Assembly: GCA_050014495.1 (NCBI GenBank)
Contig: JBEKDF010000019.1
Coordinates: forward strand, 1 to 52,091
Length of the DNA stretch: 52,091 nucleotides
Direction of reading: 5' to 3'
Origin: Candidatus Bathyarchaeia archaeon
GTDB lineage: Archaea; Thermoproteota; Bathyarchaeia; TCS64
How positions within the stretch are numbered: position 1 is the stretch's first letter; every line of letters begins with the position of its first letter. Shown in pieces: positions 48,001 through 52,091 of this stretch. Made by a program: the position numbers.

Positions 48001-51000
48001 TCCGGCAAAAATATTGGTTGGTTTAGGTAAATAGGTCATAACTACCGATAGTATCGGTATTGAAGGGTTGTTGGGTCATTATACGCACACAACTTGTGAC
48101 GAAATCATTAGCTTTGCTTTCATTCGCAATGGTTTAAAAATCTAAGATCAAAATGTGATGAAAATTAAACTTAAGTTCTGGGGGAGTCCGCCTAAGAGTT
48201 TTGGAGTTCAGTTAAAAGTATCTCCAAAGTGTTCGAGTGCAGATACCGCCAGAGGTGTCTACAGGAGACTAAACGTTCCATTCGTTAAAAGAGTCATATC
48301 CCCTAGCATAATGACGCGCGCGAGCCCCCTCATTAAATCAATTAAAAATCCCATTAAAAATAATTTACTTGGAGCCTAGTTTTTTAGCGAGTTCCACGGT
48401 TATCGAGGCCACATCCTCAGCGGATTCGCCCACAATTGAAACCATGGCCTCCTTGCCCCAGTCTCCGACATGATAGATCGCGTCAGGCACCCTACCTATT
48501 CTCCGAACTGCTTGCTCCGCACCCCAGAAAGTTGTGCCACCCTCACGGCTCTTCACCTCCGGTGGCTCCTCTCTTCTATCATAGTAAGATACCGTGAGAT
48601 CCATCTCCTCGAGGGCCTTGATGATGTCCTCTCCATACCTTAGGTTGATTGCCGCCCTCTTAAAGTCATCAAATGACTTTACTGCCAATATTGTCCGCGC
48701 AACGTGGCTTGAAGCACCGAAGCGTGGACAGCCTGTGGCTTTTACTCCATCTCTCATCTTGACTATCCGTCCCTCGATCGCAGCAACGTCCTTGATTCCT
48801 GCTGAGTAGGAAAGAGCCATCCCGATGTTCATCTGAACCTCGGCGACGAGGTCCCTCACCTCCGGGCAGCTCTCCAGCATCTTGACCGCGCCTTGGATGT
48901 TTTCGAGCACCATGTATCTCTCGGCGTCGTTGAAGAGTTTAGCCGCTGGGTTAAGTGGTCCACTCCCTTTTCCAATTCTTAGCCCGTATTTGATCGATGT
49001 GTTGACGAAGTCCTTAGCTTCCGAGGCTGATTCTGTTACCGTCAAACCCTTCGCGAGACCCGCCGCGATGGCGGAGGCGAAGCTGCACCCAGTCCCATGC
49101 GTGTCCTTTGTATCATATCGTTCACCAACGAGGAGGGTGAACTCCCCGTCGTGGAGCAGGATGTCAACCGCCTTATCGGTCTCGAATATGTGGCCACCCT
49201 TCACTAGCACCGATTTCGGGCCCATGGAGGAGATTTTTTCAGCAGCCCTCTTTCCCTCCTCGATGTTCCTGACCCTTACACCGGAGATGGCCTCGGCCTC
49301 CACCGCGTTAGGAGTTACAACCGTTGCCAGTGGGAAGATCCTCTTGATGAGCGTTTCCTTAGCCTCGGGTAATAGTAGCAGGGTGCTACTCTTCGAGATC
49401 ATAACGGGATCAACCACTATGGGACATCTAATTGTCTCCAGCTCATCGGCGACTGCCCCAATTATCTCGGATGTGTGAAGCATACCCGTCTTAACCGCGT
49501 CCACGCCGATGTCGTCAACAACCGCCCTGATCTGAGCCTTGATTATATCGATCGGTATGTCATAGACCGACCTGACCTCAACCGTGTTCTGAGCGGTCAC
49601 AGAGGTGATCGCTGACATTCCATGAACCCCAAGAGCCATCATGGTCTTGAGGTCTTCCTGTATTCCAGCGCCGCCACTCGAGTCTGATCCCGCGATCGTC
49701 AAGCATCTGTACACCCTTCTCATAGCTTCACACCTCTTTGTATCGGGTCTAACGTTGCTCCTTAAATCCTTGGCTGGTTGGATGCGCATTTTTCTACTAG
49801 TCATAATCGAATCACTCCATCCATCTTCTCCCCAAGAATCAGAACTAGTTCCCTCTCACGTTTTGATAGGCCTGTTCCGAGGTCGTTTTTCAGCCTCTCG
49901 CCGAGGTACGCGTTCACAACAGATGTTTGAGCCCTGGAGATTACGGCGTATAGTGTGTCTAGTTTCCCTCTCTGCAGATACATGGAGGCGTCATTGATGA
50001 AAAGTATATCTGAGGGTGATTTGATGAACGCTTCAAGTACTTTTTCTATTTTGGCCTTGTTCGATTCAGCTATTGATACGAGTTCCCCCGGTGTCTTCGC
50101 AGTTAGACGTGGTGCCCTTAAATTCGAAGGATTCAACTCCCGAATTCTATTAACAGGGTATTCCAGGAGTTTGCCGCCGATCGATTCGTTTGATGTCGAG
50201 ACCCTTTCTGGAGCCATGTCTATCAGGGTGATATCATCATCCCCTTCGAGTGCTTCGTTCAGGAGCTTCCTCGTGAGCGTGGTCTTTCCCGACCCTACCT
50301 CTCCCGTGATTAGGATGCGCCTCCCGTAGACATCGCTAAATGATGTGTTTATCAAGGCCCGATCTTCTCAGCAGCTTGATAATCATTAAGCCCAAGATTG
50401 ATCCAGGTATGCAACTGGCGGCGAAGGCCAACCAGAAGAAGTAGAGGGTTGCTGACCCCCCCATTAGCGGTGACACCACTAACGCGCTTAGGGTTGCTCC
50501 TATAACGACTGTCCCAAGCGGCTCCGTCAATGCGGCGTAGTCCGTCTTCTTTATATATCTATAGACAAGCCCGACGACTAATCCACCAAATATGCTGCCT
50601 GGGTACGCGTAGATGGTGCCAACACCGAGGCCTACTCGGATCGTCGCTGTCATGAATGCCATAATCACGGCGTACCATGGACCGAGAAGTATGCCAGCTA
50701 TCGCGTTGATCATATGCTGCGAGGGTGCGACCTTCGTCACACCTATTGGGATACTCAGCGATCCCAACACAACGCTAAGAGCTGTGAGAACCGCTGCTAG
50801 TGCCAGCTTCCTGGTCGTTGTTCGTACTAGCCCAACATTTGTATCGGGCTCTTTCACATAGGTCATCAAAAAATTGACAAGTTCTGATTTCTTGCTAATC
50901 GAATCTGATCTGTTTTCCATTTCTTTTTCCTCCGCCGGTATTACCCGGATCAGGTTCCAAGGGTCGACGTTTATCGTCCTCTCAGCCGGGATGATTCCCA

Positions 51001-52091
51001 GCTCCCCTTCCAACACTATACCCTCACTTGGCATCAGATAAGAATTACTAACTCGTGAATAAGTGGGATAAGTCTATGGCCCCAAACCCAAACCCAAACA
51101 AGCCTCCCAAGAAGCACCGATACACTCACTCAACGAAGCCCTTGATGCGCCGAACCATACCAGGAGAGCCCAGCCTGACAGCCGAAAAGGCCACAGCAAG
51201 CATCGAGATCAGGCTCAGAGAAACATGAATCCCCACCTGAGCCAGACCCCTGACCCTGAGACCATCCAGAAGCAACCACTCTTTAGCACGACCAAAGAGA
51301 CGCTCTTTGCTCCATCGCTTCCGGAACAACTCAACAATCCTCCTAGCACCCTTAGCAACGAACGTACCCGACCATGAACGCGTCCCTCAGCGCGCGCGTC
51401 AATCAGCTAGTTGTTAATTCTCCAAATGAGATGGTTGGCATAACGTTGCTTGGGAGGAATTCCTTCATTCTCGCCCAACGAACTCTATTATTGCCAGCTT
51501 CAGTGTTGGAGATATCGACGAACATGCGGTAGTTGACCATAGAGGTAACGCTGCTGCCGCCTGGGCTGCAGGAACCCCTAGGATCCTGGAAATATTCGCT
51601 TTCAATCACTCCAGGCGACCGACCATATACAAACGGGTACGCTTGCTTGAGCGAGACAGCAACGTAGTTTCAGCTCGACCCAGCTAAGTTGTATCCCCAG
51701 TACGCGCGCGCTTTGACTGGCTCGTTAAAGCGGGCGATCAACCATGGTGGCTGAGTCGATCCAAGCCCTGCAGGACAGGCGTACGCGAAAAACGTTAAAT
51801 GAAGGCGTAAACTCAGCGACCTACATGGGAAAAAGGCTCATAATAGATCTAAAAGATGCTAAAACAGGTGTCTTACACGGTGGACAAGGCATCTTCAGGA
51901 TCCTAATCGACAAAAAGACCACGGGCGCGAACAATTTTTCTATGCTGGTCAACACCTCGAAGGCTGGAGCAAGGGGCTCAGAGCACAGGCACGATGTTGA
52001 GCATGGCTTCTACATCCTCTCTGGGACTGGAACGATCTATCTTGACGGTGAGCCGAAGAAGATCTCTCCGAGGGAGGCGGTCTTCGTGCCG

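What a model noticed while it worked through the whole genome (the two positions that open the first line are those of the whole stretch)
48365..51018. TPP riboswitch controlling the thiamine operon: a riboswitch class conserved across Bathyarchaeia
A full TPP riboswitch aptamer (C19:50910-51018, minus) heads an operon of a ThiW/ECF thiamine-precursor S component, a small P-loop protein and ThiD-ThiN. The Shine-Dalgarno GGAGG is the aptamer's own 3' strand, 8 nt before the true ATG, pointing to direct ribosome-site occlusion; the gene caller ran ThiW through the aptamer. The element is in 65 of 71 genomes of the family and 45 of 81 sampled Bathyarchaeia, so riboswitches are a widespread inherited trait in this Thermoproteota class.
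Evidence so far: rna.tsv RF00059 65.2 bits (cut 54.3). Family search: 65/71 over cut-off, 18/18 high-quality; class sample 45/81, 15 of 28 families, none in the 4 archaeal controls. 12 best loci: downstream genes include ThiW, ThiD-ThiN and short unnamed genes; ATG/GTG 5-7 nt after the aptamer end in 5 of the 9 loci readable, P5 varies with pairing kept (CCGG/CCGG, CCAG/CTGG).
(Added by a program. Inside this text positions count along the whole contig: contig position 1 is position 1 of the stretch shown here. "Call 12" and the like, gene names such as g00115 and contig names such as C1 are that model's own, and its searches are not shown. The text may have been shortened before it was handed on; [...] marks where a part breaks off. 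The agent that wrote the report below was given it as the finding of a first reader that could run no searches.)

Follow-up and report, generated by a model that had tools for sequence, protein, structure and literature searches.

The report
Stemless vitamin-B1 riboswitch in Bathyarchaeia
A vitamin-B1 (TPP) sensor RNA sits directly in front of thiamine-salvage genes in this sediment archaeon and most of its relatives, but it lacks the closing stem reported as essential for binding in E. coli; it is predicted to begin at the very start of the mRNA and likely switches translation off by burying a ribosome-binding site that lies inside the sensor.

Summary
The TPP aptamer is real: RF00059, 65.2 bits; 65 of 71 family genomes and 92 of 151 class genomes carry one. 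It heads thiW, a P-loop gene and thiD-thiN, with GGAGG inside P4, 8 nt before the likely start codon.

Across 44 family genomes P1 columns pair in 35.5% of cells (chance level) against 97-100% for P2-P5. A TATA box calibrated on this genome puts the predicted transcription start 2-6 nt before P2, so a P1 5' strand would barely be transcribed. Archaeal copies that keep P1 have the TATA box further upstream. E. coli thiM without P1 did not bind TPP, yet these cores are invariant, and stemless relatives carry a second, two-state platform.

Best reading: a stemless translational OFF switch; binding and start site are untested. Archaeal TPP riboswitches and direct ribosome-site burial are known; no paper on Bathyarchaeia or P1 loss was found. 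The scan reported stemless archaeal TPP switches before, on other DNA. The P-loop gene is a likely thiazole kinase (also noted before).

The parts
51036..51049 (-). Predicted BRE-TATA promoter element
   Evidence: Only promoter-like site in 292 nt upstream (5.4 bits, next best 1.3) under a matrix learnt on the genome's 41 tRNA upstream regions; the 14-nt block is identical in three close orthologues whose flanks differ
51010..51014 (-). Predicted transcription start (inferred, not mapped), 2-6 nt before P2
   Evidence: Motif-to-ATG gap in 1215 first-in-operon ORFs rises sharply at 21 and peaks at 22-25 nt; motif-to-tRNA gap is 23-28 in 35 of 41 tRNAs; here the gap to P2 is 27
50927..51008 (-). 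TPP aptamer core without P1: P2, P3, UGAGA, P3a, J2/4, P4, P5, L5 and the two junction purines
   Evidence: RF00059 65.2 bits; fold -34.9 kcal/mol, z -2.4, no P1; P2-P5 paired in 97-100% of cells, P1 in 35.5%, over 44 genomes
50929..50933 (-). GGAGG, likely Shine-Dalgarno site, overlapping the 3' strand of P4
   Evidence: First G at -13 from the ATG; GGAGG peaks at -15 to -12 before 180 operon-internal genes and the genome's 16S 3' end carries the complement
50336..50920 (-). thiW, ECF S component (194 aa from the ATG at 50920; the caller's ATG 51034 lies upstream of the predicted start of transcription)
   Evidence: PF09512, TIGR02359; in-frame start conserved in 20 of 21 family copies; ATG 51034 is absent in L075 and L084 and followed by an in-frame stop in L016
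49801..50355 (-). Small RecA-fold P-loop protein (184 aa), candidate hydroxyethylthiazole kinase
   Evidence: Overlaps the thiW end; thiW within 1.5 kb in 22 of 30 loci; present in 37 of 39 thiW genomes while ThiM is in 3 of 151; model pLDDT 91, best folds CobA Z 12.7, CobU 12.2, thymidine kinase 11.5, tied with Rho and FlaH
48365..49804 (-). thiD-thiN fusion (HMP/HMP-P kinase plus thiamine-phosphate synthase)
   Evidence: PF08543 + PF10120, NF006346 539.5 bits against 528; ATGA overlap with the P-loop stop

Best explanation
This is a TPP aptamer core that lacks the closing helix P1, is predicted to form the extreme 5' end of the thiW operon mRNA, and likely turns translation off when TPP binds by locking the GGAGG ribosome site into its P4 arm.

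Shown: intact P2-P5 with invariant ligand-contact sequence; no P1 pairing; GGAGG at the genome's usual Shine-Dalgarno distance; thiamine genes downstream.

Inferred: (1) transcription starts 2-6 nt before P2; (2) without TPP the two arms are held only by the J2/4 linker, so the 3-bp P4 opens often enough for the 30S subunit to load; (3) TPP bridges the UGAGA and P4/P5 pockets and docks the arms, covering GGAGG and leaving only 6 free nt before the AUG; (4) P1 was likely lost because its 3' strand would cover the spacer and start codon and hold the gene off. The operon would import the thiazole half (ThiW), phosphorylate it (likely the P-loop protein) and join it to HMP-PP (ThiD-ThiN) in a genome where thiC and thi4 were not found.
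For: Core conservation: in 74 of 74 family copies outside genus g11, UGAGAG, CCUG, AGG, CG and three G-C pairs of P2 are invariant while the flanks vary.

P1 loss: 0 of 74 reach 5 bp and 11 reach 3 bp, against 12.5 +/- 2.7 under permutation; in 106 bacterial copies of the same subtype 82 reach 3 bp, against 34 under permutation.

Promoter position: 69 of 74 have a promoter-like site 21-28 nt before P2, against 3.9% of 180 operon-internal genes. Among 148 archaeal copies a strong P1 occurs in 1 of 89 with a gap of 27 or less and in 21 of 59 with a gap of 28 or more.

Ribosome site: where a start codon follows within 3-11 nt, P4 reads GGAGG in 61 of 75 copies; where the start is far, in 23 of 57. 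The bacterial-type U stands there in 3 and 19 copies (kin are not independent). The first G falls at -11 to -14 in 69 of 75, overlapping the genome's peak at -15 to -12.

A second platform on the same stemless core: 19 family copies, none with a 5-bp P1, have a distant start. In L004, L007 and L020 the unconstrained fold pairs a downstream strand with the UGAGA pocket and frees the ribosome site, while the aptamer-constrained fold hides it in a hairpin.

Literature: in E. coli thiB, lengthening P1 gave constitutive OFF and shortening it kept TPP repression at higher expression (PMC10578472, passages).
Against: E. coli thiM lacking P1 did not respond to 10-fold and hardly to 100-fold excess TPP; the authors call P1 a strict requirement (PMC2018614, passages).

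The ligand-free fold computed for this copy keeps P4 paired (AGG unpaired 0.05-0.24; median 0.08 over 66 direct-type copies), so release of the ribosome site is not shown in silico.

Of the 24 distant-start copies folded, only 8 gain more than 0.3 in ribosome-site accessibility; the rest differ by less, and three shift slightly the other way.

The purine-rich 3' end is conserved in all TPP aptamers, so GGAGG is partly expected; 8 of 25 family thiT copies read GAAGG. This copy has AA in place of the usual GA at the junction (9 of 74). The genome also encodes an HTH-ThiN protein that could regulate the operon instead. The start of transcription is predicted only.
Confidence: 0.65

Rival explanations
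1. The stemless aptamer needs a helper: a protein such as archaeal L7Ae clamps the opened k-junction in place of P1, giving a protein-assisted TPP switch.
For: The TPP junction is a k-turn with a third helix (PMC4005666); I map that third helix to P1. L7Ae failed to fold intact k-junctions, and the authors attribute this to the third helix and to the L1/L1.1 pairs (PMC10573300, passages). The junction adenine whose change to C abolished binding in E. coli is, by my mapping, invariant in 74 of 74 copies. The genome encodes two L7Ae-family proteins.
Against: The L1/L1.1 pairs, also blamed for blocking L7Ae, remain. Stemless look-alikes occur in bacteria (24 of 106 under 3 bp). No test of binding was possible.
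Confidence: 0.12
2. The element binds TPP only weakly or not at all; it acts as a fixed 5' structure that dampens translation or protects the mRNA end, and thiamine control comes from the ThiR-like HTH-ThiN repressor.
For: P1 deletion killed binding in E. coli thiM. The computed ligand-free fold already pairs the ribosome site. The genome has an HTH-ThiN fusion at C62:5230-6255.
Against: Ligand-contact loops are invariant in 74 of 74 copies. The query for the fusion's N-terminal domain found nothing in 0 of 11 genus-g12 genomes, 10 of which carry the aptamer, and 8 of the 11 genomes with a clear fusion have no aptamer. Anti-aptamer strands in relatives target the ligand pocket.
Confidence: 0.13
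3. Transcription starts further upstream and P1 is replaced by a non-canonical, shifted or long-range pairing, or the switch acts on transcription or mRNA decay rather than on ribosome loading.
For: The start is unmapped. The base before P2 is a purine in 90% of family copies and could pair with the first J2/4 U in 36 of 44, or with junction purines.
Against: No second promoter-like site within 292 nt; P1 counting allowed shifts of up to 1 and 2 nt; the extra pair shows no two-sided change; the 6 nt between aptamer and AUG leave no room for a terminator.
Confidence: 0.1

Closest known systems
TPP riboswitch / THI element (Rfam RF00059), E. coli thiM and thiB types
   Same: P2-P5, UGAGA pocket, CCUG/AGG arm, UAAU loop, position before thiamine transport and salvage genes, predicted translational OFF logic.
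   Different: No P1, which E. coli thiM needs for binding (PMC2018614) and which is the switching helix in thiB (PMC10578472). The aptamer is predicted to start at the 5' end of an archaeal TATA-driven mRNA.
'Direct translation attenuation' TPP riboswitches of Actinobacteria and Cyanobacteria (Barrick and Breaker 2007, PMC2258182)
   Same: The purine-rich 3' end of the aptamer doubles as the ribosome-binding site; no separate expression platform.
   Different: Archaeal host. The passages read do not report loss of P1, though several stemless look-alikes in my bacterial sample are from Actinomycetota or Chloroflexota, so the variant may extend there.
Archaeal TPP riboswitches of Thermoplasmatales (PMC5473149; bioRxiv 10.1101/538918)
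   Same: TPP aptamer before a transporter in an archaeon; expression of such elements was seen in Thermoplasmatales biofilms. 5 of 5 Thermoplasmata-titled records in my scan also have 2 bp or less of P1.
   Different: McCown et al. counted 79 riboswitches of all classes in Euryarchaeota, six in Crenarchaeota and one each in Korarchaeota and Thaumarchaeota; this one family has 119 matches in 71 genomes.
ThiM hydroxyethylthiazole kinase (PF02110), for the P-loop gene
   Same: Expected pathway position between ThiW import and ThiN condensation (pathway roles recalled).
   Different: RecA-type P-loop fold, not ribokinase-like; activity untested; this genome has a true thiM elsewhere.

Membership tests
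TPP riboswitch RF00059 | Covariance score at or above the gathering cut-off | tested here: met
   65.2 against 54.3 bits, model 1-105
TPP riboswitch RF00059 | Helices P2, P3, P4, P5 (P3a optional) | tested here: met
   97-100% of cells paired in 44 genomes; two-sided changes in P2, P3, P3a and P5; P4 never varies
TPP riboswitch RF00059 | Pyrimidine pocket UGAGA and pyrophosphate-arm consensus (CCUG, CG, AGG, UAAU loop) | tested here: met
   UGAGAG, CCUG, CG and AGG in 74 of 74; loop UAAU in 73 of 74
TPP riboswitch RF00059 | Closing helix P1 making a three-way junction | tested here: not met
   0 bp in this copy; 35.5% of cells paired over 44 genomes; length distribution equals the permutation null. 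Filed as a variant, not a canonical member
TPP riboswitch RF00059 | k-junction G-A core | tested here: inconclusive
   Terminal A invariant; preceding base G in 65 and A in 9 of 74, A in this copy; mapping onto the published numbering is my inference
TPP riboswitch RF00059 | Lies 5' of thiamine synthesis, salvage or transport genes | tested here: met
   thiW, thiD-thiN here; 132 of 140 copies assigned by similarity to ThiT, ThiW, another ECF S component, ThiC-like, ThiDN, CytX-like or the P-loop gene, 8 unassigned (ThiT and the ECF S component by Pfam; the ThiC and CytX labels are recalled from the sequences)
TPP riboswitch RF00059 | Binds TPP and changes gene expression | not testable with these tools
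   No binding or expression data
Direct translation attenuation type | Ribosome site inside the aptamer with the start codon directly behind | tested here: met
   GGAGG at -13; 20 of 21 family thiW copies with an in-frame start 4-8 nt behind
Direct translation attenuation type | Ribosome site exposed without ligand | tested here: inconclusive
   Computed ligand-free ensemble keeps the 3-bp P4 paired; the energy model is weak for such a helix
ThiM kinase family (P-loop gene) | PF02110 match and ribokinase-like fold | tested here: not met
   Only P-loop Pfam hits; model aligns with RecA-fold proteins. A working analogue at most

The most novel reading that the evidence does not exclude
A widespread archaeal TPP riboswitch has shed the helix regarded as its obligatory switch and works as an open, two-armed k-turn at the 5' end of the mRNA, clamped by the archaeal k-turn protein L7Ae: a protein-assisted metabolite riboswitch.
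Probability: 0.12. Interest if true: 0.88.

Novelty: new variant of a known kind. Interest (0 to 1): 0.62.

Why it matters
Riboswitches are described as rare in archaea, and as of 2021 only the fluoride switch had been shown by experiment (PMC8241225, passages). Here a large uncultured sediment lineage carries TPP aptamers in 92 of 151 sampled genomes, often several per genome. More importantly, one family has dropped P1, the helix that published work treats as required for binding and as the switch itself. These natural 82-nt RNAs make it directly testable whether a TPP aptamer can bind and switch without P1, and what compensates. They would also give a compact thiamine-controlled part for archaeal genetics. 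The operon points to a probable new thiazole kinase, and to two alternative controls (RNA switch or ThiR-like protein) on the same genes within one order.

Tried and rejected
- RNA runs: no RNA holder was listed, so no reads were laid; this says nothing about expression.
- Literature on Bathyarchaeia riboswitches or P1-less TPP aptamers: searches found none. One search was swamped by unrelated 'P1' hits, and the 'without P1' passages of PMC8208051 were not displayed. One search found nothing on an archaeal thiazole kinase. Rodionov 2002 and the ThiR paper are not held; what I say of ThiR is recalled. Either paper, or alignments in supplements I did not open, may already show P1-less archaeal copies.
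- The first regex missed 40 loci and was replaced by an nhmmer profile. One copy in L063 was dropped at the 5' anchor. A 3'-anchor error under-counted P1; one search supersedes it, with 4 loci unmatched.
- Four ACG 'starts' in families f22 and f26 were false and were moved to the distant-start group.
- The caller's ATG 51034 was rejected as start.
- A contaminating bacterial contig was rejected: archaeal promoter geometry, and the same element in 64 of 70 relatives.
- The P-loop protein has no sequence relative in the PDB beyond the Walker A region and no named atlas cluster above 0.9. The fold search does not single out a function.
- A 6-nt match between early thiW codons and P4 was seen by eye but is not kept in L016, L075 or L084, so it was dropped as an expression platform.
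Full report
1. Observation. Rfam gives one hit in the window: RF00059 at 50910-51018 (-), 65.2 bits against 54.3. Downstream lie thiW, a 184-aa P-loop gene and thiD-thiN, joined by overlaps and followed by a T-rich tract. GGAGG (50933-50929) is 8 nt before ATG 50920. The family count reproduces exactly: 65 of 71, 18 of 18 high-quality, 119 matches. A class sample gave 92 of 151 over cut-off in 16 of 31 families. A phylum sample added 20 of 131 genomes outside the class, in 4 families. 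Homologues of the P-loop protein carry Bathyarchaeota/Bathyarchaeia source names (3 of 95 hits).

2. Data set. I anchored 140 aptamers from 107 genomes: 78 of the 119 family matches (the higher-scoring ones, a choice that favours P1 if anything) and 62 of 77 matches in other families of the class. One copy was dropped at the anchor. As outgroups I used 106 bacterial copies from a pattern scan that stopped at 120 loci, 5 Thermoplasmata-titled and 1 Korarchaeum-titled record, and 19 copies from other classes of the phylum.

3. P1 is missing. In 44 family genomes (one copy each) the P1 columns pair in 35.5% of cells, P2-P5 in 97-100%; the consensus fold predicts no P1. Of 74 family copies outside genus g11, none reaches 5 bp and 11 reach 3 bp, against 12.5 +/- 2.7 when flanks are permuted. 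Bacteria give 82 of 106 against 34. Genus g11 keeps a 4-5 bp G-C stem in 4 of 4 copies. The core of the 74 stemless copies is nearly invariant, with covariation in P3, P3a and P5, so this is not decay. Loss is not confined to this family: it recurs in several other families of the class, in most copies of phylum family f38, in 5 of 5 Thermoplasmata-titled records, and 24 of 106 bacterial copies have under 3 bp.

4. The mRNA is predicted to start at P2. A BRE-TATA matrix learnt on 41 tRNA upstream regions places tRNA 5' ends 23-28 nt behind the motif in 35 cases. In 1215 crudely called first-in-operon ORFs the ATG distance rises at 21 and peaks at 22-25, the leaderless signature. P2 begins 22-28 nt behind the best site in 66 of 74 family copies; 69 of 74 have a site of 4 bits or more in that range, against 3.9% of 180 operon-internal genes. 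The 13 class copies with a strong P1 have gaps of 28-39. Over 148 archaeal copies, strong P1 occurs in 1 of 89 short-gap and 21 of 59 long-gap cases. In the window the gap is 27, the site is the only candidate in 292 nt, and it is identical in three orthologues. The start is thus predicted at 51010-51014. No RNA run was listed to check it.

5. Start codon and ribosome site. ATG 51034 lies just behind the TATA box and is not conserved. 20 of 21 family thiW copies have an in-frame start 4-8 nt behind the aptamer, open through N-terminal tails of varied length, and 21 of 21 read GGAGG. The genome uses this signal: GGAGG peaks at -15 to -12 before operon-internal genes and the 16S 3' end is complementary. 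Among 132 assignable copies, 75 have a near start and 57 a distant one. GGAGG is in 61 of 75 against 23 of 57, and a strong P1 in 1 against 12 (kin are not independent). Against this, the computed ligand-free fold keeps P4 paired.

6. A second platform. 19 stemless family copies drive another ECF S component from a start about 40-70 nt downstream. A strand complementary to the UGAGA pocket follows the aptamer in 19 of 57 distant-start copies against 2 of 75 near-start copies. For L004, L007 and L020 the unconstrained fold is the anti-aptamer state with a free ribosome site, and the aptamer-constrained fold hides the site. Over the 24 copies folded, 8 gain more than 0.3 in accessibility, the rest less, and three shift slightly the other way. 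This is the best indirect sign that stemless cores do switch.

7. Pathway context. The genome has thiM and thiE (C8) and an EcfT; no thiC and no full-length thi4 match was found at 96% completeness. In the class sample ThiW is in 39 genomes, the P-loop gene in 41, both in 37, and ThiM in 3 of 151. thiW lies within 1.5 kb of the P-loop gene in 22 of 30 loci. The P-loop model (pLDDT 91) is RecA-like, with CobA, CobU, Rho, FlaH and thymidine kinase near-tied at Z 11.5-12.7. A thiazole kinase is the likeliest role; it is untested, and this genome's own thiM weakens the need for it here. HTH-ThiN fusions (ThiR-like; name recalled) are clear in 11 of 151 genomes, 8 without an aptamer. In four genomes of the window's order the fusion sits beside the same operon.

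8. Inheritance. In a quick tree of 57 ThiT proteins the 23 family members form one group (SH-aLRT 92), while other families mix (18 changes, minimum 12). Descent within the family is supported; across the class, losses or exchange are needed.

9. Literature. PMC5473149 (passages and section 11): TPP and fluoride switches are known but sparse in archaea. PMC2258182 (passages): TPP aptamers can bury the ribosome site directly, mostly in Actinobacteria and Cyanobacteria. PMC2018614 (passages): thiM without P1 did not bind. PMC10578472 (passages): P1 length tunes thiB. PMC4005666 (parts 2 and 3 of 5, passages) and PMC10573300 (passages): k-junction anatomy, and L7Ae excluded by the third helix. 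PMC8241225 (passages): only the fluoride switch shown by experiment in archaea. bioRxiv 10.1101/538918 (passage): TPP elements expressed in Thermoplasmatales. PMC3766115, PMC8208051 and PMC9723716 (passages) added nothing specific. Ten searches found no paper on Bathyarchaeia riboswitches or P1-less TPP aptamers. Two key papers were not held and no supplements were opened.

10. Earlier scan notes. My P1-less reading was noted and the P-loop association. Later look-ups showed that other agents reached both readings on other genomes. They agree but are not independent proof.

11. Verdict. A real TPP aptamer and a likely direct translational OFF switch, of a stemless variant. Interest 0.62.

Noticed in passing
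window 49801-50355 (-): Unnamed RecA-fold P-loop protein that co-occurs with ThiW (37 of 39 thiW genomes) in a class where ThiM is in 3 of 151 genomes; likely a non-orthologous thiazole kinase.
   Followed up: partly
L064, L090, L081, L091, L058 (5-6 nt behind the aptamer); ATA in L054: ACG stands where orthologues have ATG or GTG; in L064 and L081 no canonical in-frame start was found before the conserved domain, and in L090 the first lies 69 nt in. Possible non-canonical initiation that lowers transporter expression.
   Followed up: partly
G000 C62:5230-6255 (L310); L285, L289, L290, L294: HTH-ThiN fusion (ThiR-like). In aptamer-less families f3 and f4 of the same order it sits beside the thiDN, P-loop, thiW genes, suggesting protein control replaces the RNA switch.
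   Followed up: partly
L004, L007, L020, L055, L102 and others: Second expression platform: an anti-UGAGA strand plus a ribosome-site hairpin ahead of an unnamed ECF S component (PF12822 only), probably a further thiamine-precursor transporter.
   Followed up: partly
window 51063-51097 and 51126-51329 (-): Remnant of an insertion sequence just upstream of the promoter: a 35-nt end segment repeated on several contigs and a weak DDE transposase fragment (E 0.009).
   Followed up: partly
L138, L141, L158, L191, L198, L245 (bacterial records): TPP aptamers with no P1 pairing also occur in Actinomycetota, Chloroflexota and one Bacillota record, several with a start codon close behind.
   Followed up: no
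window 45403-46548 (+) and 46841-47827 (-): Two convergent genes with the same DUF7347 winged-helix N-terminus and a predicted membrane anchor but unrelated C-terminal domains.
   Followed up: no
G000 C8:52301-53836 (L311): thiM-thiE pair; the genome's only RF00059 match is the one in the window. ThiM is rare in the class (3 of 151), so it may be a recent gain.
   Followed up: no
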